This document shows positions 1 to 12,640 of a stretch of 15,026 nt of DNA, piece by piece; within the stretch, counting starts at the first letter, position 1, and every line of letters begins with the position of its first letter. The translations under genes were made by a program, and so were the position numbers. The notes below the pieces were generated by a model. It ran no database searches, was not told the DNA's origin, and was given only the letters and a program-made list of their open reading frames with translations. This DNA comes from a virus: IMG/VR virus record IMGVR_UViG_3300045988_095445; one strand, given 5' to 3'.

Positions 1-162
1 ATTTCATGGTATTCTGACAATACTATGATTTCATGGTATTCTGACAATACTATGAAATTAATTGAAAAGGATTTTCATGGTATTCTGACAATACCATGTC
101 ATAGTATTCTGACAATACCATGAAAGTAAATAAAAATCCATTTCATGGTATTCTGACAATAC
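1..162. repeat. Five direct copies of a 22-27 bp iteron/operator-like unit (TTTCATGGTATTCTGACAATAC[C/T]ATG). Each unit is an imperfect palindrome (CATGGTA...TACCATG). Copies 1 and 2 are perfectly tandem.
   Basis: Read directly: 1-27, 28-54, 73-98, 99-122 (variant TCATAGTATTCTGACAATACCATG), 141-162. Confidence 0.8.
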
Positions 163-181
163 AACAAATATAACATATATT

Positions 182-256: not shown

Positions 257-319
257 ATGGAAGTATTTAAACCGATTAAGGTAGAAAATTATCAATTCAT
301 GAAGAATGGATTAAATTAG
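257..319 (+). CDS. Tiny ORF (20 aa, MEVFKPIKVENYQFMKNGLN) ending at TAG. It extends to 35 aa (TAA at 362-364) if TAG is read as sense. A second 12-aa ORF at 366-404 has SD AGAGGAG.
   Basis: Strong SD TAGGAGG 8 nt before ATG 257. No homology recognised, so this could be a leader peptide or spurious. Confidence 0.25.
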   Translation: MEVFKPIKVENYQFMKNGLN

Positions 320-404
320 TATACTTTGAAGGCAAGGTATATTTTGTAGAATAGAGGAGATTAATATGGCTATGAAGTGGAAGGTTTTAGAAATTTCGAT
401 TTAA

Positions 405-580
405 AAAATCCTAAGAAGAAGGGATTTAGAATTTCAAATTAAAAAAATAGGAGATAAGAGAGAGAATAGGAAGAGAGAGATAGAGAGATCTAATAAAGAT
501 GGATAGAGAAAGAAATAATAATAGAGTTTTAGTAAGAATAATAGAAAAAAAATAATAGAAATTGATAAAATAGGGAAGAG
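405..580 (+). other. Polypurine (A+G about 85%) low-complexity tract with GGAG/AGGAG-like motifs and AATAATAGA x3.
   Basis: Read directly: almost no C/T on the + strand across roughly 175 nt. Confidence 0.7.
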
Positions 581-671
581 GGGTGCCGATCGGGTCTAGA
601 TACGAACCATCACAACACTTGTCACAACGATCGTAAACCTAGCCTTCCGCGATTATAATATATATAAAAAA

Positions 672-697
672 GGAGAGAAGCTACAATACTTCTCTCC
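672..697 (-). terminator. Intrinsic terminator of gene 717-1172 (GGAGAGAAG-loop-CTTCTCTCC followed by a T-run on the - strand).
   Basis: 9-bp stem followed by TTTTTTATATAT on the minus strand. Confidence 0.7.
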
Positions 698-716
698 TTT
701 AATCTTTTTCCTCTTG

Positions 717-1172
717 TTACTTTAAATGCTTCAAAAACTCCATAATACTATCTTCATCAGACTTAGTATTACCCTTAACCTGAGGCACACTCTTTGCGAG
801 AGCATCAGAAATAGAGTCAACAGCAATGTCAATTACTTCATCAAGACTCTTTGCATTGACTACTCGAGCGGAAGTCTTAGCAGTTACAGTCATAGCCTGC
901 ATAAACTGCTTAATATCATTTGCTGTCCACTTAGGATTGCTCTTGCTATAAACCAGCGCAGCTACACGACCAACGTCATCCTCAGTGAGAGACAAATCAT
1001 CAACATTGCCATAAAAAGTAGACTCAATCTCATCCAGAAGAATATCTCGTTCATGGTCTGCGGCGTTAGCCTCGGAGATTCTATTCATAGCATCAGTAAA
1101 TGCCTTTGCAATCTCCTCCTGAGTAGAACCATTCTGCATTGCATCACGAATCATAATCTCATAACTATTCAT
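717..1172 (-). CDS. Hypothetical acidic (D/E-rich) protein, 151 aa.
   Basis: Clean ORF with TAA stop and a downstream terminator. No motif recognised. High negative charge is the basis for the DNA-mimic or anti-restriction suggestion in the findings, which is speculative. Confidence 0.6.
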   Translation of the reverse strand: MNSYEIMIRDAMQNGSTQEEIAKAFTDAMNRISEANAADHERDILLDEIESTFYGNVDDLSLTEDDVGRVAALVYSKSNPKWTANDIKQFMQAMTVTAKTSARVVNAKSLDEVIDIAVDSISDALAKSVPQVKGNTKSDEDSIMEFLKHLK

Positions 1173-1335
1173 AATAAGTTCTTTTAGTTAGAAAAAGCGT
1201 TATGATGCTTCTTAAACTAAAATCCTCCTTTTCTTTATCTTATGTATATATTATATTATATTTTTTATATATTGTCGAACCGATCGGGTCTAGATAAAAA
1301 GATCGCTTTAATGGAATCCCGCGGAAAAGATTTTT

Positions 1336-1712
1336 TCTTTTCAAATAGTTAGCAACATCTTTGCTATTGTTTGCTGTATCTTTAATGGTTTTAATTCTGT
1401 GAATATCACGAAATTTTGAAGAAAACGAGGCATTTTTTGCTTATTTTTAAGTAAATTTGTTAGAAAAAACGCGCATTTTTGCAAGATTTTCATTATATTT
1501 TGCGATAACAAGAGGTAAAAGATCGCGGGCCGATCGGTTTATCTAGCTAAAATCTCTATTTTTGAGCTATTTTTATCATAAAATCGTGTTAAACCGATCG
1601 GTTCCGCGAAAGAAATCTCTGGCCGTATTTGTTTTTCATAGCTATATCTTTGCTATTGCTAGTTGTATTTTAGAAAGTTTTGGTACTGTGAATACTTGAC
1701 AATTTTAAGATT
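1336..1712. repeat. Degenerate ~85-bp direct duplication (copy A about 1336-1425, copy B about 1632-1712) sharing ATCTTTGCTATTG...(41 nt)...TGTGAATA. Copy B carries a plus-strand TTGACA-N16-TATAAA promoter-like site at 1695-1722.
   Basis: Identical 13-mer (1357/1646) and 8-mer (1398/1687) at identical spacing. Confidence 0.6.
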
Positions 1713-1900
1713 TTTATTATAAAAAATTGGACGAGAGAGCCAATATTGTTGGACCGATCGGAACTAGATAAAGGAAGAAAAAAAGTAGGGCCGATCGGTA
1801 TTTGGAAGAGGGCGTTATGAATTTCGGGAAAATCGCTATGAAGTTGCGTTATGGCCAAGTTGCTATGAAAATTTTGCGCTATGGTCCGATCGGGGAAATT

Positions 1901-1972
1901 CGGGCCGAGTCGCCCGCGACCGGCCCGCCCAAAATTTTGCATAAAAAAAATCTCCCCTTATGGGGAGATTTT
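1901..1972 (-). terminator. Double intrinsic terminator: a GC hairpin (1901-1927, CGGGCCG...CGGCCCG) followed by hairpin TCTCCCC-TTAT-GGGGAGA (1951-1969) flanked by A- and T-runs, so it is bidirectional.
   Basis: Perfect stems. Same architecture as the intergenic modules further right. Confidence 0.7.
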
Positions 1973-1975
1973 TCT

Positions 1976-2326
1976 TTAGTTGAGAATTATTGGATATGCC
2001 TTGCGAATAACCACCGTAACCATGGCCGGGGGAGTGTCGCACAAGAAACGGTCATTTCTGATAAAACGACCAATTCCCATATTCTGCCACAAAGTCCGGT
2101 TTACATCCTCGTATCGGAGGGTATTATACTTGGAAAGTTTGATATGCCAATCATAGATAAAGCAACCATCTTCCGGCATGGTGTAATCTGGCGCCCGCTT
2201 ATAATTTCTCGTATGTTCCGCGGCTCTGCGCTCAAGATCATTTGTCGTACCAATCTTGAGAATATAGCGCCCCTTTTTGTCGATGTAATGTCCGACATAT
2301 AGGAACTCTTTTCCTCTTGTCTGCAA
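1976..2326 (-). CDS. GIY-YIG family nuclease, small standalone domain of 116 aa.
   Basis: LYVGHY...YILKIGTTNDLERRAAEH matches GIY-(10)-YIG-(x)-R-x3-E/H, with downstream E and N (YEDVN). The track ORF starts at TTG with no good SD, so the start is uncertain. Confidence 0.65.
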   Translation of the reverse strand: MQTRGKEFLYVGHYIDKKGRYILKIGTTNDLERRAAEHTRNYKRAPDYTMPEDGCFIYDWHIKLSKYNTLRYEDVNRTLWQNMGIGRFIRNDRFLCDTPPAMVTVVIRKAYPIILN

Positions 2327-2351
2327 ACCAACTATAACTTACCTCTTTTCT

Positions 2352-2379
2352 GGTAGGGCCGGGGTAGGCCGACCCTACC
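2352..2379. terminator. GC-rich hairpin GGTAGGG...CCCTACC between gene 2383-2700 and the GIY-YIG gene.
   Basis: 7-bp stem. T-rich on the + side only, so it may act as an attenuator. Confidence 0.35.
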
Positions 2380-2382
2380 CCG

Positions 2383-2700
2383 TTATTTCTTCGGTTTACG
2401 CTTTTGCACAAGCGTCAACTCGAAACTATCCCCACCAATAGAAAACGCAATCTGTCTTTCCTTGTTAGTAATAGACAAGTCAGCGATAGAGAATTGACTG
2501 TTTTTTTCCAAAAACTCTGCCAATTCCGCAATTATACCGCCTTTCGTGGCGTTTGGCTTGCGTTGCCGTGTAGTGAACTTATATGCGGTTGGCTGTTTGC
2601 GCGTTCCAGCATGGGCAAACTTTTGAGCGATTTTCGCCTTTTCTGGCGGTAAATCGTATTCAGTCTTTTTATCAGCCTCTACCGCCTTATCATAGGCCAA
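2383..2700 (-). CDS. Hypothetical basic protein, 105 aa.
   Basis: ORF with TAA stop and SD GAGGAGG upstream. No motif recognised. Confidence 0.55.
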   Translation of the reverse strand: MAYDKAVEADKKTEYDLPPEKAKIAQKFAHAGTRKQPTAYKFTTRQRKPNATKGGIIAELAEFLEKNSQFSIADLSITNKERQIAFSIGGDSFELTLVQKRKPKK

Positions 2701-2805
2701 TAAATCTGCCTCCTCTTCCGGCGTTAATTGCAGGGCTTTATACCTTGCAATCCGTTCAGCGTCACTAATGCGACTGGATATAATATCACCCCCATATTAT
2801 AAGTT

Positions 2806-2830
2806 AGGGCGGGGATTTTCACCCCGCCCT
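2806..2830 (-). terminator. Hairpin AGGGCGGGG-ATTTTCA-CCCCGCCCT. It is nearly identical to the hairpin at 5597-5622.
   Basis: 9-bp perfect stem immediately after the stop of gene 2839-3249. Confidence 0.6.
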
Positions 2831-2838
2831 ATACGGGG

Positions 2839-3249
2839 TTACGCCATCTTAAAGAGGGACTTGCCCTTCTTCTCCGTGCAGACTACTCGACCATCGAATT
2901 TCAACTGCCGCACAAGAGCGGCGACCTTCTGGTTAGAATAGGCCGTCAGATCAGGAATAGCCTTAAAAATTTCCGTGCAGGTCACGCCATCGGTATCGGC
3001 GTCCAGACCAGCCAGATACTCCATAATCTGCTCCTTAAAATTCTCATTCTCCTGCTGGGTGGGAGTCAACTTCTTATCACCGCTGGAGCTATTCTTCTTA
3101 CGCAGAAGCTCCAGCTCATGGTCAATGACAGTAATAGCCACCTCGATGGTAGTGCCATACTTTACCTCGCCGTCAGTCAAGAGGGCCTTAATGTCCTCAA
3201 AACGCTGGGCCTTAGTAGTGCGGATTTTCTTCTCGTCCATAATATACAT
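2839..3249 (-). CDS. Hypothetical protein, 136 aa. It is driven by four tandem promoters.
   Basis: ORF with TAA stop and SD AAAGGA. The C-terminal VTCTEIFKAIPDLTAYSNQKVAALVRQLKFDGRV might be a winged-helix, but that is weak. Confidence 0.6.
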   Translation of the reverse strand: MYIMDEKKIRTTKAQRFEDIKALLTDGEVKYGTTIEVAITVIDHELELLRKKNSSSGDKKLTPTQQENENFKEQIMEYLAGLDADTDGVTCTEIFKAIPDLTAYSNQKVAALVRQLKFDGRVVCTEKKGKSLFKMA

Positions 3250-3283
3250 CCTTTCTGGTTTTTAGGACTGTCCTTGTCCTTTG

Positions 3284-3490
3284 ATTATATTGTACCACAC
3301 TATTTGGTACTTGTCAAGAGGTTTTTCAAACTTTTTTCAAGAACTTTTGCTCTTTACTTGTTTGCCCTCTCAACCTCCCTTATAGTGTAACACACTTTGG
3401 AAAGTTTGTCAAGTCCTTTTTATTTAATTTTCAAGGTACATTGCCTTGTTTTCTGTACCTATTATAGCACATCTTCAAAGGCTTGTCAAG
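3284..3490 (-). promoter_or_regulatory. Three tandem near-consensus sigma-A/sigma-70 promoters on the minus strand, each with extended -10 (TGn).
   Basis: TTGACA-17-TGgTACAAT (3289-3317), TTGACA-17-TGtTACACT (3384-3412) and TTGACA-17-TGcTATAAT (3461-3489). Spacers counted directly. Confidence 0.75.
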
Positions 3491-3560
3491 AGGTTTTTGA
3501 AAGATTTTTGAGAAATTCGCTGTCGCTGTCTGCCGTTCGTTTCTCTCACTTTCTGAATGT

Positions 3561-3760
3561 ATTTTACCACAAGCAAAAGCAGATTGCAAGCGTCAAATTG
3601 CACAAAAATTGGAATTTTGGGAGAAAGTTTTTGTGCAGAATTTTGCACAAAACGGGGCTGAAATTTTTGTGCAACATTTACAAAGAAAAACTCGGGTCGC
3701 GCCGTTCCTGCGCGACCCGCTCAAATTTTGTATAAAAAAAGAAGGGCCGAAGCCCTTCTT
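3561..3760 (-). promoter_or_regulatory. Intergenic module A. On the minus strand it runs: terminator 1 (3741-3758), GC-hairpin terminator 2 (3693-3719), palindrome TTGTGCA-N6-TGCACAA (3631-3650) plus half-sites TTGCACAA (3598) and TTGTGCAA (3666), then promoter TTGCAA-17-TGgTAAAAT (3561-3589).
   Basis: Read directly. Terminator 1 (AAAAGAAGGGCCGAAGCCCTTCTT) is identical to 6509-6531. Confidence 0.7.
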
Positions 3761-3941
3761 AACAGAAAATACAGTTATCCAGAAAATCAAACAGGTGTTC
3801 ATCCTCAATGGGAACATTTACCAGCATATTTCCATCTTCGTCAATATCATCATGACACCATCCTATACGCTCAATAATTTGAATTGCCATGTAAACGGCA
3901 TCTGCACACAGAGAAGAGGTATATACAATTTTTGTTACCAT
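3759..3941 (-). CDS. Small protein, 60 aa (MVTKIVYTSSLCADAVYMAIQIIERIGWCHDDIDEDGNMLVNVPIEDEHLFDFLDNCIFC).
   Basis: The 111-aa track ORF 3759-4094 is a fusion artefact. The real start is ATG 3941, with SD GAGGAGG 6 nt upstream, right after the TAA of the upstream gene. Confidence 0.6.
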   Translation of the reverse strand: MVTKIVYTSSLCADAVYMAIQIIERIGWCHDDIDEDGNMLVNVPIEDEHLFDFLDNCIFC

Positions 3942-3942
3942 T

Positions 3943-4134
3943 TTATTCCTCCTCGAAATCATCAACCCCATATTGTCTCTGATATTCGTCACAGTCAAAC
4001 CATGGCTCACCCAAAGAGCAACAAAGTGATTCCGTGTCAAAATCTGGACAGATAGTATCATAGATTTGTTCTGGATCCATGCCTTCCTCGGCATAATGCG
4101 GGCAACTCCACCGCATACAATGAACCTGAGACAT
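3943..4134 (-). CDS. Small acidic Cys-rich protein, 63 aa (six Cys, possible Zn-binding).
   Basis: ORF with TAA stop and SD AAAGGA. Stop-start adjacent to the 60-aa gene. Confidence 0.55.
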   Translation of the reverse strand: MSQVHCMRWSCPHYAEEGMDPEQIYDTICPDFDTESLCCSLGEPWFDCDEYQRQYGVDDFEEE

Positions 4135-4148
4135 ATTATTTCCTTTCT

Positions 4149-4176
4149 GCCGGGCGGGGCTTTAAGCCCCTACCCG
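4149..4176 (-). terminator. Hairpin CCGGGCGGGGCTT-TAA-AGCCCCTACCCGG.
   Basis: Stem GGGGCT/AGCCCC plus an outer CCGGG/CCCGG pairing, immediately downstream of the exonuclease stop. Confidence 0.5.
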
Positions 4177-4986
4177 GATAGTTGGAATTGAACGCATACT
4201 TGCGGAAAGCTGACGCTGAAAATCTGTCATAGGAGGAAATTCTCTCTTATTCTCATACAGAGCCTTTCTCATGGGCTTATGTTGACGCATACAGTACCAC
4301 ATGATTTCCGCCTCAATGAGAACATCTTCAAGCCCCGTATGACTTTCCTCAAAATCGGTATTTCCAGAGATAAACCGCCACACGATTTCCGCAGTCTTAC
4401 GAGGAACGCCATTGGCCTGGATATATCCATTTTCCTGACAGAATTTCTTATAAGTGGGCATATTGCAGATAACATCTTGTGTCATCTTCATAATGTCCCA
4501 AATTTCCACACTGTCAAACGGGAACCAGTAGCGAAACTTAGAGCAAGTGACCCATCGTTGAATGACCCGCAGAGCGTTATCGTCAAACCGGGCATTATAA
4601 GCAGCCACCTCTTTAATGCCGTATCGCTCGATAGTATCAAGCATAGCCTGCCGGATTTCATAGGTTGTAGCCATCTTACGAGTGCCGGCCCGCAATTCCT
4701 CAACATAGCGGGGGATTTTCCAATTATAATAGGCCGTCCGCATTAAATCCCGCTCGTCATTGAAAATGTCCCGATTTACAAAACTTGCAGTTTCGTAAAT
4801 ATTGCCCTTGGTATCTACTACGGCCCAGCCGCAGTCATATACCAGTACATTTGACATATCCATGCGGACACGCTCAGGAGTGATAATCTCCCCATCTTCC
4901 CCGATTTCAGCGGGAACGGTTTCGGTTAGTGTGTTGGCGGTTTCAGTGTCAACCACCAGCACATAATGTCTGCGTTTATCAATCAT
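4162..4986 (-). CDS. DEDDh-family 3'-5' exonuclease (DnaQ/RNase T-like), 274 aa.
   Basis: Exo I VLVVDTETAN, Exo II VAAYNARFDDNAL and Exo III HTGLEDVLIEAEI (H-x4-D) in canonical order. Confidence 0.75.
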   Translation of the reverse strand: MIDKRRHYVLVVDTETANTLTETVPAEIGEDGEIITPERVRMDMSNVLVYDCGWAVVDTKGNIYETASFVNRDIFNDERDLMRTAYYNWKIPRYVEELRAGTRKMATTYEIRQAMLDTIERYGIKEVAAYNARFDDNALRVIQRWVTCSKFRYWFPFDSVEIWDIMKMTQDVICNMPTYKKFCQENGYIQANGVPRKTAEIVWRFISGNTDFEESHTGLEDVLIEAEIMWYCMRQHKPMRKALYENKREFPPMTDFQRQLSASMRSIPTIRVGA

Positions 4987-5020
4987 AATCTATCAAGTCC
5001 TTTCTTCTCTTGATGGTATT

Positions 5021-5049
5021 ATTATAGCACATTTAAGGCTTGGTGTCAA
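5021..5049 (-). promoter_or_regulatory. Consensus promoter TTGACA-17-TGcTATAAT (minus strand).
   Basis: -35 at 5044-5049 and -10 at 5021-5026, spacer 17. Confidence 0.7.
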
Positions 5050-5211
5050 GAGGAAAAGGAAATTTTGTTGCGATTTATTGCAAGCTACTGGACGATGGAA
5101 TGGCCTATTCCAAAGGCGCTCGCTCGACTTATAACACAAATACCCATTTTCTTCCTTTACTTTCTAAGAGTTCGCGACCTCTTGATTTCTTGGCCTCTCC
5201 CTCCTGACATG

Positions 5212-5380
5212 ATAATAATACCATACTTTTGGGAGAATTGCAAGATGGCAAATTGCACAACTTTTTGCCACCAAAATTGTGCAACATCTACAAAGAAAAA
5301 AATTCGGCGCGCCGCGTGCGTCAGCGCGCCGCTCAAATGACAATAAAAAAATACCCCTCTCATTATTGAGAGGGGTATTT
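5212..5380 (-). promoter_or_regulatory. Intergenic module B: terminator hairpin 5353-5378, GC-hairpin terminator 5305-5331 (identical to 6461-6487), TTGCACAA (5253) and TTGTGCAA (5278), promoter TTGCAA-17-TGgTATTAT (5215-5243).
   Basis: Read directly. Confidence 0.7.
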
Positions 5381-5581
5381 TTAATATCCAATATATTCCC
5401 TGTTGATTAGTTCATCTATTCCGTATACCAGATCATCAAGAGAGATAGGAAAGTCATCATCAATTTCATTATCTTCCATATTCCTGCTAATCTGGCTTAT
5501 GAGGATTGACGCATCTCTCAAGGCTTTTTTCTCTATCGAACCGAGAACAAGCCTATTAACTTTCCGAATTTCCATTTGCAA
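5381..5581 (-). CDS. Small acidic protein, 66 aa.
   Basis: ORF with TAA stop. No promoter of its own, so it is probably co-transcribed with the upstream genes. Confidence 0.45.
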   Translation of the reverse strand: MQMEIRKVNRLVLGSIEKKALRDASILISQISRNMEDNEIDDDFPISLDDLVYGIDELINREYIGY

Positions 5582-5596
5582 AACTCCCTTTCTTTG

Positions 5597-5622
5597 CGGG
5601 GCGGGGATTTTAACCCCGCCCT
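5597..5622 (-). terminator. Hairpin GGGCGGGG-ATTTTAA-CCCCGCCC. It is a near-copy of the 2806-2830 hairpin.
   Basis: 8-bp GC stem after the stop of gene 5628-6089. Confidence 0.55.
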
Positions 5623-5627
5623 CTTAC

Positions 5628-6089
5628 TCAGTTTAGATTGTTGATATATTCGATTATGTCTGTCTCTCCTGGATTTATTGTATCTCCTAAATGCCAACCG
5701 TGCCTAATTTTATCATTATCATCAAAAAGGATAAACGGCGGTTCATAGAAACTACGGAATACACATTTGGCTTTGGTCGTTCCGTATGCTACACAATGGC
5801 ATTTATGAGCCGGGAATTTATACCTTGCAAGCCATTCCTTTTTAGCGGCTGTGACTGCTTTCTTATATTCGGGAGTGCTTTCGGGCGGTAGCCATGTAAT
5901 TACTCTAATTTCCCATCCGTTATTGATTGCCTTTAGAAGCGCATTTCTAAGAGCTTCCATGTCCCACATAGGGGCCGCGTCTCGGAATGGGGTGGGGTCT
6001 CCATTGCGGAGTTTTTCGAGCCAATTAGGGACTGCATACAAGTCCGCGATAGTTCCATCCATGTCAAAGCAGAGCATTTTTTTAGTCAT
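5628..6089 (-). CDS. HAD-superfamily hydrolase, probably a 5'(3')-deoxyribonucleotidase-like (NT5C family) nucleotidase, 153 aa.
   Basis: Motif I FDMDGTIAD (DxDGT), Ser/Thr motif (VITW), Lys (KKEW) and motif IV FDDND. The start overlaps the upstream gene end. Confidence 0.6.
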   Translation of the reverse strand: MTKKMLCFDMDGTIADLYAVPNWLEKLRNGDPTPFRDAAPMWDMEALRNALLKAINNGWEIRVITWLPPESTPEYKKAVTAAKKEWLARYKFPAHKCHCVAYGTTKAKCVFRSFYEPPFILFDDNDKIRHGWHLGDTINPGETDIIEYINNLN

Positions 6090-6095
6090 TGTATA

Positions 6096-6344
6096 TCAAT
6101 CTCCTTTTGTTTTATTATACCACTTGTTGCCTACCTTGTCAACAAGTTTTTCAAAAAAAGTTTTACGCCGACATACCTTATAAGGTATTGACATATAATC
6201 TACATAGATCAGAGGATCTTGTAAAAGCACAGTCTGTATATAAATCTCATAATTAACCGGGGTAGTAGTATGCCCGAATTGTCTATGATAAATTTCAGCT
6301 ACGGTTAAGTATTCGTTAGGCTGAATAAACTTTGAAGGTTTCAT
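6096..6344 (-). CDS. Hypothetical protein, 82 aa. Its 3' end encodes the promoter and SD for the HAD gene.
   Basis: Strong SD GGAGGGG. TGA stop 6 nt before the HAD ATG. Confidence 0.55.
   Translation of the reverse strand: MKPSKFIQPNEYLTVAEIYHRQFGHTTTPVNYEIYIQTVLLQDPLIYVDYMSIPYKVCRRKTFFEKLVDKVGNKWYNKTKGD
6114..6142 (-). promoter_or_regulatory. Consensus promoter TTGACA-17-TGgTATAAT embedded inside the coding sequence of gene 6096-6344. It drives the HAD gene.
   Basis: -35 at 6137-6142, -10 at 6114-6119, spacer 17. Confidence 0.55.
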
Positions 6345-6371
6345 TTAGTATCCCCTCCTTTTTCTGTACTA

Positions 6372-6531
6372 ATAATACCATAATTTAAGGATAATTGCAA
6401 GATGGCAAATTGCACAAGATTTCAAGACAAAAATTGTGTAGAACTTACAAATAAGAAAACTCGGCGCGCCGCGTGCGTCAGCGCGCCGTCGAATTTTTAG
6501 TATATAAAAAAGAAGGGCCGAAGCCCTTCTT
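6372..6531 (-). promoter_or_regulatory. Intergenic module C: terminator 6512-6529 (same as 3741-3758), GC hairpin 6461-6487 (same as 5305-5331), TTGCACAA (6409), TTGTGTAG (6433), promoter TTGCAA-17-TGgTATTAT (6372-6400).
   Basis: Read directly. Confidence 0.7.
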
Positions 6532-6990
6532 TTATCTTTCAGCCATATTTGAAAAATACCTTGCGACTAGTTTAACCATTTCATGAATAGATTCATCATT
6601 GTGCAAATTTTTGTAACAAATGAATCCAATTTGTCCACCATCAGAAAAAATGGGAGTAATAAACATAGATTTCCACGCTGTCGCAGGTTGGCTGATATTA
6701 CTCCATTCATCTGGTGGTATAGAAATTTTGAAAGAACTAGGCCCGCTTAAAAGTTTATCTGAATCGAAGATTGCCGCGGAAATGTGATTAACAGAAAGGG
6801 CATTTCGCATTTCGTGGGCATGGTCAACGAAAAAAGATAGTGGAGAATATTTCTTGAAGGCTATACAGTCGCCATCAAGAAAAATTTCCATAGGGTCGCC
6901 TTCTCTAATTCGCATACTCCTACGAATTTCTCTAGGAATAACAATACGCCCTAGGTCATCAATATGTCGAACAATACCAACAGCTCTCAT
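6532..6990 (-). CDS. spoVT: SpoVT/AbrB-family regulator. It has an N-terminal swapped-hairpin DNA-binding domain and a SpoVT-like (GAF-type) C-terminal domain, 152 aa.
   Basis: GIVRHIDDLGRIVIPREIRRSMRIREGDPMEIFLDGDCIAFKKYSPLS is near-identical in pattern to B. subtilis SpoVT (GIVRRIDDLGRVVIPKEIRRTLRIREGDPLEIFVD...KKYSPIS). The C-terminal ...PIFSDGGQIGFICY...LVARYFSNMAE resembles SpoVT ...PIVANGDPIGAVVIF...FLARQME. Confidence 0.85.
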   Translation of the reverse strand: MRAVGIVRHIDDLGRIVIPREIRRSMRIREGDPMEIFLDGDCIAFKKYSPLSFFVDHAHEMRNALSVNHISAAIFDSDKLLSGPSSFKISIPPDEWSNISQPATAWKSMFITPIFSDGGQIGFICYKNLHNDESIHEMVKLVARYFSNMAER

Positions 6991-6999
6991 TTTTTTATC

Positions 7000-7033
7000 G
7001 CGGGAGCATAGAATACAAGTCCTATACTCCCGC
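7000..7033 (-). terminator. Weak hairpin GCGGGAG-N20-CTCCCGC between genes 7045-7443 and 6532-6990. It is possibly an attenuator.
   Basis: 7-bp stem with a long loop. No promoter lies between the two genes. Confidence 0.3.
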
Positions 7034-7044
7034 GCCTCCTTTCC

Positions 7045-7443
7045 TTAAAGCGATTTCCGCAGTTCGTCTAGTAGAGTAGACAGAGTTTTCATATCGCCGC
7101 CCATTTCCAGCTTGACACAAATCAGGCTTGCATTTTCCTCTACCCACTTTGTCACAGTGGACAGCTCTTCATCCATCGTTTGATTGATGGGGTTGTAAAG
7201 ACTGCACATATTTGACTTGGCGCACTCCGGGTCATAATAGCGGCGGAGCTTATATCCCTTTGCCGTGGCGCGCTCAATAATCTTTGTATTCAGCGCCTCA
7301 ATCTCTTTCCGGCCTTCCTCGATAAAATCCTCAAACTCTTTCATAGCTCCCGCATACTTGGCTCGGATTTCCTCTCGTTTGGCGTTCGCAATCTTGTTGA
7401 CCTCGTCATTGATATAGGCTTCAATCCTCTTAGTAACACGCAT
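7045..7443 (-). CDS. Hypothetical protein, 132 aa.
   Basis: ORF with TAA stop and the promoter just upstream. Confidence 0.55.
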   Translation of the reverse strand: MRVTKRIEAYINDEVNKIANAKREEIRAKYAGAMKEFEDFIEEGRKEIEALNTKIIERATAKGYKLRRYYDPECAKSNMCSLYNPINQTMDEELSTVTKWVEENASLICVKLEMGGDMKTLSTLLDELRKSL

Positions 7444-7501
7444 TTCTAAAACTCCCTTTCTTATTTTAATTTATTTTTGGGGCTGCCCCTTCCATAGTCT
7501 T

Positions 7502-7530
7502 ATTGTACCACAGAAGGGGCAATTTGTCAA
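7502..7530 (-). promoter_or_regulatory. Promoter TTGACA-17-TGgTACAAT.
   Basis: -35 at 7525-7530, -10 at 7502-7507. Confidence 0.7.
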
Positions 7531-7537
7531 CCCCTTT

Positions 7538-7768
7538 TTACAAGGAAAGTAAATCCATCATAGTCATTTCATCAACCGCCTTATCGGCTTCCTCATCGAA
7601 AATACCCTTGATAATATCGGCCGCGTCATCGGGAGTACATATGCCGATCCGCAGGAATTTCCCCAAAGACTGGAGCATTGCCTGTGCTGCTTCTCCTGGG
7701 CAGAACTCCTCCATGGTCTTATGCAGAAGAATAATCCCCTGTCTATCCTGCTCAGTCATTCTATACAT
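7538..7768 (-). CDS. Hypothetical acidic protein, 76 aa.
   Basis: ORF with TAA stop. Confidence 0.5.
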   Translation of the reverse strand: MYRMTEQDRQGIILLHKTMEEFCPGEAAQAMLQSLGKFLRIGICTPDDAADIIKGIFDEEADKAVDEMTMMDLLSL

Positions 7769-7819
7769 AGCAATATTTCCTTTCTGGTTTAATGAGTTTT
7801 CCTTCTCTTTACATTATTG

Positions 7820-7848
7820 ATTATACCACTGTTTAAGCGGTTTGTCAA
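7820..7848 (-). promoter_or_regulatory. Promoter TTGACA-17-TGgTATAAT.
   Basis: -35 at 7843-7848, -10 at 7820-7825. Confidence 0.7.
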
Positions 7849-7852
7849 CCCT

Positions 7853-7990
7853 TTACATCAAATTTTTTGCCAAATATGCGAACATTAGAATTTCTGCGGC
7901 AAACATGATTTCAAGCCGAATACAGCCTTTTTGAGCAGCCGCCATTAACTGCCATGCAAGGCAGGCCACAAACGCAATCAAAACAATCAT
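7853..7990 (-). CDS. Possible 45-aa hydrophobic peptide (MIVLIAFVACLAWQLMAAAQKGCIRLEIMFAAEILMFAYLAKNLM).
   Basis: ORF below the track cutoff. The SD is 22 nt from the ATG and the ORF lies between a terminator and the next promoter, so it may not be expressed. Confidence 0.2.
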   Translation of the reverse strand: MIVLIAFVACLAWQLMAAAQKGCIRLEIMFAAEILMFAYLAKNLM

Positions 7991-8023
7991 TGTGAAGGTA
8001 GTTATATATATACTCCTTTTCTG

Positions 8024-8050
8024 GTTAAGAGGGTTTATACCCTCTTAACC
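8024..8050 (-). terminator. Hairpin GGTTAAGAGGG-TTTATA-CCCTCTTAACC overlapping the stop of gene 8035-8268.
   Basis: 11-bp perfect stem with the TAA stop in the loop. Confidence 0.55.
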
Positions 8051-8268
8051 TCGATAATCTCCATATCGAAATCTTCCCAATATGCGCCCATGAGAAGGTC
8101 ATGCCGCAAGTCCCCTTCATTCTCATAGTCCATATCTTCCAGAATTTGGCTCCACTCGCTTTCGGAATACTGGGCCTTGAGCCAGTCCCATCCCGCATGG
8201 CGTGCGCCAGTTTCAGTATCAGAAACGCCGATAATCTTTTCTCTACTGTCAGCCATTACCAGATACAT
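8035..8268 (-). CDS. Hypothetical acidic Trp-rich protein, 77 aa.
   Basis: ORF with SD AAAAGGAGA and TAA stop. Confidence 0.55.
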   Translation of the reverse strand: MYLVMADSREKIIGVSDTETGARHAGWDWLKAQYSESEWSQILEDMDYENEGDLRHDLLMGAYWEDFDMEIIEVKRV

Positions 8269-8321
8269 AACTCATTCTCCTTTTGTTTCGAGGGCTTTTG
8301 TTCTCCCCTCTTGATGATACA

Positions 8322-8505
8322 AGTATAACAGATAGCAGATAGAAAGTCAAGCAATTTTGGGAAAAAATCTTCCGTCAGATTGCACAACAATTCGAGCCTA
8401 AAATTGTGCAAATTGCCTCTTGATAAAAAATTCCGGCCGCGCCTGTGGTGCACGGCCGGGCGAACGAATAAAAAAAAAGAACCTCCTGAATTTCAGGAGG
8501 TCATT
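8322..8505 (-). promoter_or_regulatory. Intergenic module D: terminator 8481-8504 (ACCTCCTGA-ATT-TCAGGAGGT), GC hairpin 8433-8459, TTGTGCAA (8404), TTGCACAA (8380), promoter TTGACT-17-TGtTATACT (8322-8350).
   Basis: Read directly. Confidence 0.7.
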
Positions 8506-8543
8506 AATTTCTGCATACCAACAACTTCCTTTCTTTTGAGAAG

Positions 8544-8777
8544 TCAATCGGCATTTTCAACAATCTTTAATCCGTTTGCTTGGATAATTTTCATAGCTTC
8601 TTCAAGCGAGGAATCAACCGATCCGCAGTCGATACAGATATATTTTCTGCCATCTTTTACCATAGTAGTAAAATAGTATTCTTGGCCAGAAACAAGGCCC
8701 ATCTACTCTCGCAGTCTTACTGGAATCATGATACGCCCACTTGAATCTAATTTCCTTGAGAAAGTAGTTTCTTGCAT
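8544..8777 (-). pseudogene. AbrB-fold (swapped-hairpin) gene with one in-frame TAG at 8703-8705. It is either an amber-recoded gene (one 77-residue protein) or a nonsense pseudogene.
   Basis: MQETTFSRKLDSSGRIMIPVRLRE-[TAG]-MGLVSGQEYYFTTMVKDGRKYICID... aligns colinearly with AbrB RKVDELGRVVIPIELRR-T-LGIAEKDALEIYVDD, with the TAG occupying one residue position. There is no SD upstream of the ATG. Stop is TGA at 8544. Confidence 0.55.
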
Positions 8778-9014
8778 TTTGATAAATAAATTCTAGTGAC
8801 CTAGGCTCGTGCGAAAAACGACTCCATCACGGGAATCGCCGATTTAGAACAATCGGAAGGAACATTTACCACTCGCAAGGCATTTTCTGGCAGAACTGAG
8901 ACATAGGGCAATTTTACAAGAATCCTAGTTCAAACAGAACTCTAAAATAACCGCGAGTGCTTTCAGCACTTCTAAGGTCATTAGAAAAACTCCTTTCTTT
9001 ATTTTTCTATAATT

Positions 9015-9043
9015 ATTATAATATATTTTTTTGAAAAAATCAA
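9015..9043 (-). promoter_or_regulatory. Promoter TTGATT-17-TATAAT, followed by SD AAAGGAG and an 18-aa ORF (8923-8979) containing hairpin GAAGTGC-TGAAA-GCACTTC, then about 200 nt untranslated.
   Basis: -35 at 9038-9043, -10 at 9015-9020. Leader-peptide-like arrangement upstream of the AbrB-like gene. Confidence 0.45.
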
Positions 9044-9182
9044 TAGGGCCGGCATTACGCCAGCCCTAATCTCTGTAACCAAACCAGATGGTATTTACCA
9101 ATGTGAAGTAGAACTGTGCCATATCCCTTATTTGTCCAAACAGTGGAACCGATAGGATATGTATGCGGTAAACGCTCAATAC

Positions 9183-9398
9183 TCACTTTAGTTCCACCTC
9201 CTCGAAAGCTCCAATTTTTAGCAGATAATTATATAAGGCTCTATCTTGTTTGTCGCCGGTATTAAAATCAAGAGTACGAACACAGCCGGTAACATTGGAA
9301 TTAAGAGGATGATTCAAACACCAACCAGCCATATTACAAATTGTGTCTCCAAACTCCGCAGATTTTTCTACACTTTCAAATTTAATAACAGCAATCAT
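9183..9398 (-). CDS. Hypothetical protein, 71 aa.
   Basis: Strong SD AAAGGAGGAAT. TGA stop. Confidence 0.55.
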   Translation of the reverse strand: MIAVIKFESVEKSAEFGDTICNMAGWCLNHPLNSNVTGCVRTLDFNTGDKQDRALYNYLLKIGAFEEVELK

Positions 9399-9421
9399 AT
9401 TTATTCCTCCTTTTTATCATG

Positions 9422-9450
9422 GGGAGTGGAGGTTTGTGGCCTCCACTCCC
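9422..9450 (-). terminator. Hairpin GGGAGTGGAGG-TTTGTGG-CCTCCACTCCC between co-oriented genes. It may act as an attenuator.
   Basis: 11-bp stem. The next gene's SD follows immediately with no promoter. Confidence 0.5.
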
Positions 9451-9460
9451 GCAAGTTTTC

Positions 9461-9700
9461 TTAATCATCTACATAAATGATTAAATTGTTATCTCTTGCC
9501 TCAATGCCGGTTACCTGAAGTCCTAGAACCCATTCCTTAGATATCTCGATTACGTCTCCTCCCAGAGTTATTCTACCATCAGGTAATTCATGGTAATGAG
9601 CTTGGGTATTCTTATTGATAATTTCAAATCCCTCCCCGTCAAAGAACATAGTATCTTCTGCAAGCGGAGAAAGTAACCAAGCAACCATATCTAAAGTCAT
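9461..9700 (-). CDS. Hypothetical acidic protein, 79 aa.
   Basis: ORF with SD AAAGGAAG and TAA stop. Confidence 0.55.
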   Translation of the reverse strand: MTLDMVAWLLSPLAEDTMFFDGEGFEIINKNTQAHYHELPDGRITLGGDVIEISKEWVLGLQVTGIEARDNNLIIYVDD

Positions 9701-9754
9701 TTTTTTTACTTCCTTTCAAATTCTTTTTGTGGCCTGTCCCTTTGGACAAGTATA

Positions 9755-9955
9755 TAATAACACATGGCAAAAGGAATGTCAAGTAATTTCGGGAGAAAAA
9801 CTTTCGTCGAATTGCACAGACTTTCGGTCATATAATTGTTGAAATTGCCGAATAAATAAAAATTCGGGCCGCGGCGCACGCTGGCGGCCCGGCGAAAAGT
9901 CAATATGGAAAAGTGCATAAAAATGACTGGCAATCTTTGTGTAGATTGCCAGTCA
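9755..9955 (-). promoter_or_regulatory. Intergenic module E: terminator 9925-9953 (11-bp stem), GC hairpin 9865-9891, TTGCACAG (9812), promoter TTGACA-17-TGtTATTAT (9755-9783).
   Basis: Read directly. Confidence 0.7.
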
Positions 9956-9967
9956 AGTATTATTCCT

Positions 9968-10201
9968 TTACAGCTCCATGGTTTCCATGAGATAGCCCGT
10001 GCCCATCGGCACCTCCCGCAGATTGCTGGGACTTATACGCAACTTATATTTCCTATTGATTTTATTCGCCGCACTTGTCTTATCTCTCGCTTGGACAATT
10101 ACTGGTATATGGAGTTTATTTAGAGTGGGCTTATTAAGACTGAAATATCCCATCTCTCTGCGCTTGCGGCCCATGGCGTCGATATAAGTCCCTCTATACA
10201 T
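9968..10201 (-). CDS. Hypothetical basic protein, 77 aa.
   Basis: SD GGAGG 5 nt before the ATG. TAA stop followed by a terminator. Confidence 0.55.
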   Translation of the reverse strand: MYRGTYIDAMGRKRREMGYFSLNKPTLNKLHIPVIVQARDKTSAANKINRKYKLRISPSNLREVPMGTGYLMETMEL

Positions 10202-10212
10202 TTTTCCTCCTA

Positions 10213-10658: not shown

Positions 10659-10704
10659 AGTCTTTTATCCTTTCTCCCCGTATAGCCGTTAGGTCAGCTT
10701 CTTT

Positions 10705-10851: not shown

Positions 10852-10880
10852 ATAGTATGCCCCTTTCTTTTAATTATTAT

Positions 10881-10917: not shown

Positions 10918-10925
10918 ATAAACTG

Positions 10926-11479: not shown

Positions 11480-11504
11480 TAGTTTTTTTGAAATTTCTTT
11501 CTCT

Positions 11505-12188: not shown

Positions 12189-12640
12189 TTAAAACCTCCA
12201 AGAAAATTCTAAAATTGCGGGAATTGCAAAATAGATATTTGGAATATTATAATTGCGGGCTGCGTTTACGAGCAAGGTGGCGACCGTTGATGGATCTTGC
12301 ATAAAAACACCACAGCCCCAGGCTCCCGCGATTAAATTTTCCACTCCCTTAACCTCGGCAATTCTCTCTTCCATTATCCTATTGTTTAGAGAAAGAGGAA
12401 CTTTACATCAGCTAATTTTATACTATCGTCTTTTTCAAAGACTATAGATAGCTCTATCAAGATATAGGGCTCGATTCAGTCTCTGCCATAAGTATCATCA
12501 AAAGCAAGAAGAATAGGGTAAAGGTTGCTTTCGTGACACAATGCCTCTTCTACCACCTGGATGTATAATTTAAGATCGCAGTCTTGCTCCGATCGGTTAA
12601 ACCGAATAGACAGGATACGCTATCTTGGTCTTTAAGATAA
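12189..12640 (-). pseudogene. Decayed PARG-like macrodomain (DUF2263/TIGR02452-type) gene. Three collinear fragments are broken by TGA, TAA and a frameshift. The track ORF 12189-12374 is the C-terminal fragment.
   Basis: Fragment ...YIQVVEEALCHESNLYPILLAFDDTYGRD*(TGA) resembles the QEE/LCR-S-LY region. Then IEPYILIELSIVFEKDDSIKL* follows, then (frameshift) MEERIAEVKGVENLIAGAWGCGVF... with the GAWGCGVF diphosphate-loop motif. Family assignment is from memory of the motifs. Confidence 0.45.

What the first reader, a model, noticed from the sequence alone, without database searches (positions are those of the whole stretch)
586..1893. Seven CCGATCGG palindromes (GATC core) in 1.3 kb of AT-rich non-coding DNA, three as CCGATCGG-NN-CTAGATA; an eighth lies at 12588
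An 8-bp palindrome is expected about 0.2 times in 15 kb. Here it occurs eight times, with seven clustered next to iteron-like repeats, an 85-bp duplication and short GC(G)TTATG(A/G) iterations at 1810-1880.

Clustered GATC-containing palindromes in an AT-rich tract are typical of several features: replication origins with Dam-methylation or SeqA-type control, centromere-like parS arrays, and pac/cos or recombination sites. The composite with CTAGATA suggests a specific protein-binding site rather than bare methylation targets.
Basis: seen in the sequence. Interest (0 to 1): 0.65.

Follow-up and report, generated by a model that had tools for sequence, protein, structure and literature searches.

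The report
Conserved 8-bp palindrome array in gut phage
A group of uncultivated human-gut phages keeps five to seven exact copies of the palindrome CCGATCGG in a 1.3-kb promoter-rich stretch next to their replication-initiator/iteron module; this is most likely a set of docking sites for an unidentified dimeric DNA-binding protein, not a bare methylation target or the origin itself.

Summary
CCGATCGG occurs 8 times in the window (0.13 expected), 7 of them in 586-1893.

In 28 related phage genomes, the syntenic 1.3-kb cluster holds 145 copies (3.45 per kb). The 475 kb around the clusters holds 11 (0.023 per kb). All eight bases are invariant, while the flanks are only 50-65% identical.

The CTAGATA extension is lineage-specific. 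The eighth copy (12589) lies inside a decayed PARG gene and is probably incidental.

To the left of the cluster, every subgroup carries a TAG-recoded Rep-like gene with iterons; window 1-166 is such an iteron set. Rep and iteron types are swapped between relatives while the palindromes stay unchanged. The origin proper is therefore probably at the iterons.

All strong promoters in the cluster point leftwards. One site abuts the -35 of the promoter of a conserved 151-aa gene, or lies about 20 bp further upstream. Two other promoters have a site 10 bp upstream of the -35.

No conserved RNA structure, DnaA box, ParB, methyltransferase or terminase gene was found nearby.

Best reading (about 0.4): an operator-like array for an unidentified two-fold symmetric DNA-binding protein at the junction between the early operon and the replication module. 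This is moderately interesting and its mechanism is unproven.

The parts
586..593 (.). CCGATCGG site 1. It lies between the bidirectional terminator of the 151-aa gene and the converging plus-strand Rep island.
   Evidence: It is present in all 23 distinct site-1 contexts, with a conserved purine-rich left flank AAAATAGGAAGGTGGCGTG.
1280..1287 (.). CCGATCGG site 2. It abuts the -35 of promoter P1 and is the start of paralogous unit A.
   Evidence: The gap to the -35 is 0-1 nt in four subgroups and 19-22 nt in three others.
1530..1537 (.). CCGATCGG site 3, 10 nt upstream of the -35 of predicted promoter P2. It forms an extended inverted repeat with site 4.
   Evidence: (I24).
1594..1601 (.). 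CCGATCGG site 4, the start of paralogous unit B.
1754..1761 (.). CCGATCGG site 5, 10 nt upstream of the -35 of predicted promoter P3. It is lineage-specific.
1791..1798 (.). CCGATCGG site 6. It is lineage-specific and forms an inverted pair with site 5.
   Evidence: (I25).
1886..1893 (.). CCGATCGG site 7, next to the GC-rich hairpin. In the L028/L033/L041/L044 lineages it starts 36 nt after the -10 of a consensus leftward promoter.
1250..1278 (-). Promoter P1 (TCGACA-17-TATAAT) of the 151-aa gene.
   Evidence: It is conserved in all subgroups.
1492..1519 (-). Predicted promoter P2 (TTTACC-16-TATAAT).
   Evidence: A promoter-like site lies in the same region in distant subgroups.
1716..1743 (-). 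Predicted promoter P3 (TTGGCT-16-TATAAT).
717..1172 (-). Conserved 151-aa acidic all-helical protein gene nested between sites 1 and 2.
   Evidence: It is restricted to this clade, has pI 4.5, and has no Pfam or fold match.
669..700 (.). Bidirectional intrinsic terminator.
   Evidence: An equivalent hairpin is present in relatives.
1288..1415 (.). Paralogous unit A (about 130 bp, following site 2).
   Evidence: (D5).
1602..1730 (.). Paralogous unit B (about 130 bp, following site 4).
   Evidence: (D5).
1810..1884 (.). Five GC(G)(T)TATG(A/G) short repeats and a TTTCGGGAAAA pseudo-palindrome between sites 6 and 7.
   Evidence: They are partly conserved as GCATATG / TTTCGGGAAAA in distant relatives.
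1896..1934 (.). GC-rich hairpin of the early-cassette family (AAATTCGG-hairpin).
   Evidence: D2 family, further copies at 3688, 5300, 8428 and 9860.
1..166 (.). Five 27-nt iterons (ATTTCATGGTATTCTGACAATACYATG). They are the probable initiator-binding part of the origin and are not part of the palindrome array.
   Evidence: The Rep-like gene lies directly to the left in relative L025, and other Rep/iteron types occur in L022, L026 and L028.
12589..12596 (.). Eighth CCGATCGG, probably incidental, inside a decayed microbial-type PARG gene.

Best explanation
The seven clustered CCGATCGG copies are recognition sites for one two-fold symmetric, sequence-specific DNA-binding protein. That protein is probably phage-encoded and has not been identified.

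The sites lie on the DNA upstream of, or just downstream of, the leftward sigma-70-type promoters. These promoters fill the 1.2 kb between the last early genes and a conserved 151-aa gene. The sites work as an operator-like array.

Bound protein would contact or obstruct RNA polymerase at these promoters. It would thereby set how much leftward transcription reaches the 151-aa gene and the neighbouring Rep/iteron origin.

Shown:
- the exact 8-mer is under purifying selection;
- it is clustered and local;
- it is independent of the Rep/iteron type;
- it is placed at 0-1, 10 or about 20 bp from -35 hexamers.

Inferred:
- a protein binds it;
- the effect is on transcription;
- the binder has a fold that reads a contiguous 8-bp palindrome in one major groove (ribbon-helix-helix, AbrB-like or restriction-enzyme-like), rather than a classical HTH dimer.
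For: Local enrichment:
- 8 copies against 0.13 expected in the window.
- 145 copies in the syntenic clusters of 28 genomes against 11 in 475 kb outside, a roughly 150-fold difference in density.
- 1 copy in the 136-kb genome of phAss-1.

Selection on the 8-mer:
- It is invariant at orthologous sites (pairwise identity 0.82-1.00), while the 20-nt flanks are 0.50-0.80 identical and the non-coding average is 0.53.
- Sites turn over (gain, loss, doublets) but each genome keeps 5-7 copies. There is at most about one one-mismatch variant per cluster region.

Relation to promoters:
- All promoter-like sites scoring 10 or more of 12 that lie between the palindromes are on the minus strand in eight of the nine representative genomes scanned; L020 has one weak plus-strand match and L173 a plus-strand promoter.
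- Site 2 is 0-1 nt from the -35 of the conserved promoter of the 151-aa gene, or 19-22 nt in three other lineages. Sites 3 and 5 are 10 nt from predicted -35 hexamers. The gaps therefore step by about one helical turn.
- In four lineages, site 7 starts exactly 36 nt after the -10 of a consensus promoter.

Against an RNA-level role:
- No conserved RNA fold was found for the site-1 element or the units. The use of one identical sequence at all sites argues for a trans-acting reader rather than for pairing.

Strength of the constraint:
- GATC is avoided elsewhere in these genomes (observed/expected 0.45), so keeping these copies implies a strong constraint.
Against: - No binder has been identified.
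- The nearby RHH and AbrB/SpoVT-like genes are not present in all cluster-bearing genomes.
- The three genes that always precede the cluster are the wHTH-like gene, the basic 105-137-aa gene and the T5orf172 gene. The latter two also occur in a relative without a cluster. None of the three gave a diagnostic fold or family hit.
- The 151-aa protein inside the cluster is acidic and shows no DNA-binding fold.
- Total invariance of a short site resembles restriction, modification or nuclease recognition more than typical operators, which tolerate mismatches.
- Apart from site 2 with P1 and site 7 with the consensus promoter, site-promoter distances differ between lineages. P2 and P3 are consensus matches only.
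- The helical-phase argument is post hoc and rests on about six events.
- P1 is already close to consensus, so it needs no activator.
Confidence: 0.4

Rival explanations
1. Accessory element of the replication origin. The palindromes belong to the origin next to the Rep/iteron module. They could be binding sites for a conserved replisome organiser or host factor, or GATC-containing sites whose methylation state times initiation, as in P1 oriR or oriC/SeqA.
For: - The cluster is always 0.4-1 kb from a Rep-like HTH gene with iterons. That module's types are swapped between relatives, as is usual for origin modules.
- The spacers are AT-rich (GC 0.30-0.33).
- 11 of the window's 29 GATC lie in 487-1893.
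- Leftward promoters could activate the origin transcriptionally (this is inference).
Against: - The sites do not co-vary with Rep or iteron type.
- There are no DnaA boxes.
- All 8 bp are conserved, not just GATC.
- GATC is under-represented genome-wide (observed/expected 0.45), which is unlike self-methylating Dam+ phages (inference).
- The sites are spread over 1.3 kb with a gene in between, not packed into a 100-250-bp origin core.
- The cluster is a zone of converging transcription.
Confidence: 0.17
2. Centromere-like sites of a plasmid-type replicon, of the parS or KorB kind. A ParB-, KorB- or RHH-type protein binds the dispersed identical palindromes, both to segregate an extrachromosomal phage genome and to silence nearby promoters.
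For: - A CopG-like RHH gene, a Rep gene and iterons form a plasmid-like replicon in several lineages.
- Full-length genomes (148-149 kb) appear as separate contigs in MAG bins and are not integrated.
- The copies are identical palindromes dispersed near the origin, with one abutting a -35, like class I KorB operators (the comparison rests on general knowledge).
Against: - No ParA, ParB, ParM or TubZ gene was recognised among the larger ORFs scanned in the window and in parts of the relatives' flanks.
- The site is 8 bp, not the 13-16 bp of KorB or ParB sites.
- There is no evidence that these phages are maintained as plasmids.
- The RHH gene is absent from many cluster-bearing genomes.
Confidence: 0.12
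3. Structure-forming elements acting in RNA or single-stranded DNA. Any two copies of the palindrome can pair, so neighbouring copies (3+4, 5+6) form long hairpins in the leftward leader transcript. These could be RNase III-type processing or stability signals, or cruciforms in the DNA.
For: - Regions 1500-1620 and 1740-1810 fold far better than shuffled sequence (z -3.8 to -5.1).
- CGCGG/CCGCG flanks extend the 3+4 inverted repeat in three subgroups, with matched internal-loop sizes.
- In L173 a consensus plus-strand promoter starts a transcript in which TTGCGGAC...GTCCGCAA encloses a site.
- A purine/pyrimidine stem around site 1 pairs in 74.6% of cells, against 67.4% in shuffles.
Against: - RNAalifold finds no consensus structure for the site-1 element or the units (energies about 0).
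- Stems enclosing sites are no more frequent than at control positions.
- The site-1 stem scores the same when slid by one column, and it is broken in the window itself.
- Pairing would not require the same 8-mer at every site in every genome.
- The 3+4 spacing is lost in L026 and L173.
Confidence: 0.1
4. Cleavage, nicking or packaging-recognition sites. A phage enzyme cuts or nicks at the exact 8-mer, or is loaded there, to start replication or packaging, as at a P1-type pac site with GATC repeats. Candidates are the adjacent T5orf172/GIY-YIG-like protein or the terminase.
For: - All-or-none exactness of a short palindrome is typical of nuclease or methyltransferase recognition (inference).
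- A T5orf172 (GIY-YIG-related) gene directly precedes the cluster in all cluster-bearing genomes.
- Six contigs end inside this 2-kb region, three of them 133-148 kb long.
Against: - Contig ends fall in the iterons and in the paralogous units, not at the palindromes. This fits assembly breaks at repeats.
- No terminase gene is nearby.
- T5orf172 and the basic protein also occur without a cluster.
- The T5orf172 match is weak (23 bits).
Confidence: 0.1
5. No dedicated function. The copies would be relics of a small repeated or mobile GC-rich element, or would be carried along by recombination between modules.
For: - Two of the sites start paralogous 130-bp units.
- The region is mosaic between lineages.
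Against: - The 8-mers are invariant where the flanks have diverged to 50-65% identity. They are also kept against genome-wide GATC avoidance.
- Sites 1, 3 and 7 are not part of the duplicated units.
Confidence: 0.05

Closest known systems
KorB operators (OB) of IncP plasmid RK2
   Same: - Several identical short palindromes are dispersed over promoter regions near a replicon.
- One class of OB sites sits immediately upstream of the -35, as site 2 does here.
- A single protein would read all copies.

The description of KorB rests on general knowledge.
   Different: - OB is 13 bp and is read by a ParB-family HTH protein encoded with a partner ATPase. Here the site is 8 bp, and no ParB-like gene was recognised among the ORFs scanned in the window and its neighbourhood.
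- The copies here are confined to 1.3 kb.
MetJ met-boxes and other ribbon-helix-helix operators (omega heptads, CopG)
   Same: - An 8-bp palindromic unit of the size that one RHH dimer reads in one major groove.
- It is repeated several times around promoters.
- RHH genes occur in the adjacent Rep island of some lineages.
   Different: - Met-boxes and omega heptads are contiguous tandem arrays and are degenerate. Here the copies are exact and 22-700 bp apart.
- The local RHH gene is not universal.
P1 oriR and P1 pac (clustered GATC-containing repeats under Dam control)
   Different: - The P1 repeats are 6-7 bp, packed within about 60-160 bp, and only the Dam target matters. Here 8 bp are invariant and spread over 1.3 kb.
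- These genomes avoid GATC elsewhere.
- No methyltransferase gene was seen.
17-bp dyad-symmetric intergenic repeats of Cluster O mycobacteriophages, and stoperators of Cluster A
   Same: A highly conserved short motif is present in many copies in phage non-coding DNA and is taken to be the target of one regulator. This comparison rests on general knowledge.
   Different: Those motifs are longer and are scattered over the whole genome. The array here is confined to one junction region.
PeSL-type early promoter/stem-loop cassettes of T4-like phages
   Same: The surrounding early region (2-11.7 kb) is built of repeated promoter + hairpin + terminator cassettes. Site 7 sits inside one such cassette.
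   Different: PeSLs are defined by the promoter and hairpin and carry no invariant palindrome. The CCGATCGG copies are absent from the other cassettes in the window.

Membership tests
Dam/SeqA-controlled origin (oriC, P1 oriR type) | Conservation limited to the GATC methylation target | tested here: not met
   All eight positions of CCGATCGG are invariant at the 145 exact copies found in the clusters.
Dam/SeqA-controlled origin (oriC, P1 oriR type) | Initiator boxes (DnaA boxes or iterons) interleaved with the GATC sites in a compact AT-rich core | tested here: not met
   There are no DnaA boxes in 1-2000. The iterons lie at 1-166, at least 350 bp from the nearest palindrome, and a gene lies within the cluster.
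Dam/SeqA-controlled origin (oriC, P1 oriR type) | GATC methyltransferase and a hemimethylated-GATC binder in the phage or host | not testable with these tools
   Whole genomes and methylation data are not available. The GATC observed/expected ratio of 0.45 outside the clusters argues indirectly against self-methylation.
Iteron-type origin (initiator + iterons) | The repeat sequence co-varies with the initiator type | tested here: not met
   This is met for the 27-nt repeats at 1-166, and for the different repeats in L022 and L026 with their different Rep genes. It is not met for CCGATCGG, which is the same with every Rep type.
ParB-parS / KorB-OB centromere-operator | A 13-16-bp palindrome matching the parS or OB consensus | tested here: not met
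   The conserved element is 8 bp with no conserved extension.
ParB-parS / KorB-OB centromere-operator | ParB-family gene and partner NTPase at the locus | tested here: inconclusive
   None was recognised among the larger ORFs scanned with Pfam/PHROGs in the window and in parts of the relatives' flanks. The rest of the 100-150-kb genomes was not seen.
ParB-parS / KorB-OB centromere-operator | Several identical copies near the origin, some overlapping promoters | tested here: met
   There are 5-7 copies within 1.3 kb beside the Rep module. Site 2 abuts a -35.
Transcription-factor operator array | Sites placed at fixed, helically phased distances from promoter elements | tested here: inconclusive
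   The gaps to the -35 are 0-1, 10 and 19-22 nt. Site 7 starts 36 nt after the -10 in four lineages. The number of events is small and the promoters are only predicted.
Transcription-factor operator array | An identified cognate DNA-binding protein | tested here: not met
   Candidates were examined without a diagnostic result.
P1-type pac site | Short GATC repeats flanking a cleavage site within about 160 bp, inside or beside the terminase gene | tested here: not met
   The sites span 1.3 kb and no terminase gene was recognised nearby. Contig ends do not coincide with the sites.
Structured RNA or RNase III processing hairpins | A secondary structure conserved through compensatory changes | tested here: inconclusive
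   There is no alifold consensus. The site-1 stem shows weak covariation that equals the one-column slide control. There is no excess of enclosing stems. The 3+4 and 5+6 hairpins are stable but follow trivially from the palindrome.
Rfam families / tRNA | A match to a curated RNA model | tested here: not met
   No tRNA was found. All Rfam hits are far below their gathering scores.

The most novel reading that the evidence does not exclude
The exact 8-mers are substrates, not merely binding sites. A phage enzyme, for example the adjacent T5orf172/GIY-YIG-like protein with the basic or wHTH partner, would nick, cut or modify CCGATCGG. This would trigger or license replication or packaging from the neighbouring plasmid-like Rep/iteron origin. 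It would be a site-specific 'origin-licensing' array of a kind not described for tailed phages, kept in a genome that otherwise purges GATC.
Probability: 0.1. Interest if true: 0.75.

Novelty: new variant of a known kind. Interest (0 to 1): 0.45.

Why it matters
These TAG-recoded phages of 100-150 kb are common in human gut metagenomes, have no cultured representative, and consist almost entirely of unannotated genes.

An invariant, strongly selected DNA word beside the replication module gives a concrete experimental handle:
- It can be used as bait to fish out its binding protein.
- It marks the probable control point between early transcription and replication.
- It serves as a signature for recognising members of the clade.

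If the sites turn out to be enzyme substrates or centromere-like, that would bear on how these phages replicate or persist in Clostridia hosts. If they are ordinary operators, the result is a useful but routine annotation.

Tried and rejected
- **Similarity to known phages.** Nucleotide similarity to deposited phages gave nothing. Protein similarity gave only distant links, to Enterococcus Herelleviridae-like phages and to phAss-1.
- **Literature.** A search for the 8-mer returned only primers and unrelated uses.
- **RNA models.** tRNA and Rfam scans found nothing above threshold.
- **RNA structure.** Neither strand of the site-1 element or of the 130-bp units shows a conserved fold. Hairpins that would display the palindrome in a loop are not enriched over controls. 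The purine/pyrimidine stem at site 1 is inconclusive.
- **Extended motif.** About half of the copies have a CCGCR/YGCGG flank 1-3 nt away. This second motif is not clearly enriched in the cluster and its spacing varies.
- **The 151-aa protein as binder.** It is acidic and all-helical (pLDDT 78) and has no fold match in PDB or BFVD.
- **The basic 105-137-aa protein.** It has more than 1800 homologues but no Pfam, PDB or fold match. It also occurs in a relative without the cluster.
- **RHH and AbrB/SpoVT-like genes as binders.** They are not universal among cluster-bearing genomes.
- **Analogous arrays in distant relatives.** phAss-1 has none. L046 has tandem 11-mers instead.
- **Pairs of the palindrome in all viral contigs.** The scan was swamped by unrelated, probably GC-rich, genomes and was not informative.
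- **DnaA boxes.** None.
- **Contig ends as genome termini.** The ends lie in repeats rather than at the sites.
Full report
**1. Observation**

CCGATCGG occurs eight times in the 15,026-bp window. The positions are 586, 1280, 1530, 1594, 1754, 1791, 1886 and 12589. Dinucleotide-preserving shuffles expect 0.13 copies, and no shuffle gave more than one.

Three copies carry the extension NN-CTAGATA, and a fourth carries its inverted form.

The tract is AT-rich (GC 0.30-0.40) but is not all non-coding. A 151-aa gene (717-1172, minus strand) lies between the first two copies. It has a near-consensus promoter and a bidirectional terminator.

The '85-bp duplication' is a pair of about 130-bp paralogous units that begin at sites 2 and 4. 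The iteron-like repeats are five 27-nt copies at 1-166.

**2. What the window is**

No deposited phage matches at the nucleotide level.

The right end of the window reads TAG as a sense codon. This includes a FolD gene confirmed by Pfam, and relatives show the same in their Rep island. The 2-11.7-kb stretch consists of small standard-code genes on the minus strand.

A 274-aa exonuclease-like protein (4162-4986) brought in 27 related IMG/VR contigs with 74-99% identity. Most are 55-164 kb long and most come from one large metagenome dataset. A further locus, L046, is a more distant relative (36% identity, 72-kb contig).

The same search found 148-149-kb contigs binned with Oscillospiraceae and Eubacterium MAGs.

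The nearest described relative is phAss-1, at about 30% identity. It is a 136-kb 'code 15' gut phage with predicted Clostridia hosts (PMC10607447).

**3. The cluster is conserved and local**

Every related locus that covers the region has 3-7 copies in the same syntenic place, 2.3-4.4 kb downstream of the marker gene. Loci that cover the whole cluster have 4-7 copies, and most have 5-7.

Over 28 genomes there are 145 copies in the clusters (3.45 per kb). The 475 kb around the clusters holds 11 (0.023 per kb), and these reduce to six distinct sites.

In an alignment of twelve diverse sequences, the 8-mers at sites 1, 2, 3, 4 and 7 show pairwise identity of 0.82-1.00. The 20-nt flanks show 0.50-0.80, and all non-coding columns average 0.53.

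Sites 5 and 6 are lineage-specific. Other lineages have gained, lost or doubled copies, yet each genome keeps five to seven.

The CTAGATA extension is not conserved outside the window's lineage.

The distant relative phAss-1 has one copy in 136 kb. Another relative, L046, has a tandem 11-mer array instead.

GATC is under-represented elsewhere in these genomes (observed/expected 0.45 in eight genomes). The clustered copies are therefore kept against the genomic trend.

**4. The eighth copy**

In close relatives, position 12589 lies in the reading frame of an intact 301-aa microbial-type PARG gene (PF10021). In the window this gene is decayed. I take this copy to be incidental.

**5. Neighbourhood**

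In every subgroup, a short plus-strand, TAG-recoded island lies to the left of site 1. It encodes a Rep-like HTH protein (a weak HTH_36 match), often with a CopG-like RHH protein, and it is followed or interrupted by iterons.

- Window 1-166 is the iteron set of one Rep type.
- L022 has another Rep gene with different iterons.
- L026 has its iterons inside the rep gene.

This swapping of initiator and iterons is what origin modules typically show. The palindromes stay identical throughout. They are therefore not the initiator's sites, and the origin proper is most likely at the iterons.

There are no DnaA boxes in the cluster. No ParA, ParB, methyltransferase or terminase gene was recognised among the larger ORFs of the window and parts of the relatives' flanks that were scanned with Pfam and PHROGs.

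**6. Relation to promoters**

Nearly all strong sigma-70-like matches between the palindromes are on the minus strand, which is the direction of the early genes. The exceptions are one weak plus-strand match in L020 and the L173 promoter described below.

- The promoter of the 151-aa gene is conserved in all subgroups. Site 2 lies 0-1 nt from its -35 in four subgroups and 19-22 nt upstream in three others.
- In the window's lineage, sites 3 and 5 lie 10 nt upstream of two further predicted -35 hexamers.
- In four distant lineages, a consensus TTGACA-17/18-TATAAT promoter is followed by a GC hairpin, and site 7 starts exactly 36 nt after the -10.

The gaps of roughly 0, 10 and 20 bp correspond to whole helical turns. 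This suggests a protein that must face RNA polymerase from one side of the helix. The argument rests on few events and on predicted promoters.

One lineage (L173) instead has a consensus plus-strand promoter that reads into site 4. The promoter layout is therefore plastic while the sites persist.

**7. RNA or structure readings**

Neighbouring copies necessarily pair. Regions 1500-1620 and 1740-1810 fold much better than shuffled sequence (z -3.8 to -5.1), and CGCGG/CCGCG flanks extend the pairing of sites 3 and 4 in three subgroups.

Several results count against a structural role:

- RNAalifold finds no consensus structure for the site-1 element or for the 130-bp units on either strand.
- Stems enclosing a site are no more frequent than at control positions.
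- A purine/pyrimidine stem around site 1 shows weak covariation that equals a one-column slide control. It is also broken in the window itself.

A structural role would not explain why the same 8-mer is used at every site in every genome.

**8. Candidate readers**

- The 151-aa protein inside the cluster is restricted to this clade. It is acidic (pI 4.5) and all-helical, and it has no fold match.
- The RHH and AbrB/SpoVT-like genes are not universal among cluster-bearing genomes.
- Three genes always precede the cluster: a wHTH-like protein of 136 aa, a basic protein of 105-137 aa, and a T5orf172/GIY-YIG-related protein of 116 aa. They gave no diagnostic match.
- The basic protein and T5orf172 also occur in a relative without the cluster.

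From general structural knowledge, a contiguous 8-bp palindrome is the size read by a ribbon-helix-helix or AbrB-type dimer, or by a restriction-enzyme-like protein. A classical HTH dimer would not fit it.

**9. Verdict**

The motif is a specific recognition element beside a replication module. It is probably not the origin itself, not a Dam/SeqA-type device and not a canonical parS or pac site.

My best reading (about 0.4) is an operator-like array for one two-fold symmetric DNA-binding protein. It would control the leftward promoters at the junction between the early operon and the Rep/iteron module.

The rivals, in order, are:

- origin accessory element (0.17);
- centromere/KorB-like element (0.12);
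- RNA or ssDNA structure (0.10);
- cleavage, nicking or packaging sites (0.10);
- no function (0.05).

This is a new variant of a known kind of feature, found in a poorly known and abundant gut-phage clade. It is of moderate interest and can be tested directly with a pull-down and with long-read methylation and read-end data.

Noticed in passing
window 12100-15026, and the Rep island left of the window in L022, L025, L026, L028 and L041: TAG is read as a sense codon (probably Gln). This holds in the FolD gene (13248-14072, minus), in the ORF starting at 14479 (plus), and in the Rep-like and small genes of relatives. The early genes at 2-11.7 kb use the standard code. The clade is related to the 'code 15' gut phage phAss-1.
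   Followed up: partly
window 1-166 (weak sixth copy at 213-239); L025, L022, L026 and L028 in window orientation: Five 27-nt iterons, ATTTCATGGTATTCTGACAATACYATG, lie at the window's left end. Relatives show a Rep-like HTH gene, with or without a CopG-like RHH gene, directly to the left. Rep and iteron types are exchanged as a module between otherwise near-identical phages, and one type has its iterons inside the rep gene. GTCCAAAATTTTCTAA boxes flank the Rep genes.
   Followed up: partly
window 1896-11560: The early region is built of repeated cassettes with four parts. (1) Minus-strand TTGACA...TGnTAcAAT promoters at 3288, 3383, 3460, 5020, 6113, 7501, 7820 and 11353. (2) GC-rich hairpins whose arms differ in sequence between copies while remaining self-complementary, at 1896, 3688, 5300, 6457, 8428 and 9860. 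(3) TTGCACAA...TTGTGCAA box pairs at 5249, 6406, 8376 and 9808. (4) Intrinsic terminators. This resembles the promoter/stem-loop cassettes that shuffle early genes in T4-like phages.
   Followed up: partly
window 12100-12900: A microbial-type PARG (macro-domain) gene is intact in L019 (301 aa with TAG read as Gln) but truncated or deleted in the window. The eighth CCGATCGG lies in its frame.
   Followed up: yes
window 1976-2326, 2383-2796, 2839-3249 (all minus strand): A T5orf172/GIY-YIG-related 116-aa protein, a very basic 105-137-aa protein and a wHTH-like 136-aa protein always precede the palindrome cluster. The basic protein has more than 1800 metagenomic homologues but no Pfam family. Locus L171 has the first two genes without any cluster.
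   Followed up: partly
window 6532-6990 (minus strand): This gene encodes an AbrB/SpoVT-type (MazE_antitoxin domain) protein of 152 aa with an extra C-terminal domain. It is present in only some relatives.
   Followed up: partly
whole window and loci L020-L173: GATC (observed/expected 0.45) and CTAG (0.53) are under-represented outside the cluster, while TCGA is not (1.04). phAss-1 shows the same pattern. This suggests pressure from GATC-specific host restriction.
   Followed up: partly
ends of L019, L021, L029, L035, L040 and L174 (about window 33, 111, inside 717-1172, and left of site 3 / in units A and B): Six independent contigs stop inside this 2-kb region; three of them are 133-148 kb long and the others 55-101 kb. 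The ends fall in iterons or in the paralogous units rather than at the palindromes. They look like assembly breaks at repeats, but a physical terminus has not been excluded.
   Followed up: partly
window 1810-1884 and 1197: Short GC(G)(T)TATG(A/G) repeats (five copies, plus one at 1197) and a TTTCGGGAAAA pseudo-palindrome are partly conserved in distant relatives, as GCATATG and TTTCGGGAAAA. They are further candidate protein-binding motifs of unknown function.
   Followed up: no
window 258-585: This is a purine-rich stretch with many TAG triplets. It is the remnant of a TAG-recoded small ORF that is intact in L022 (171-codon stop-free frame) and in L025. The window copy appears deleted or degenerate.
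   Followed up: partly
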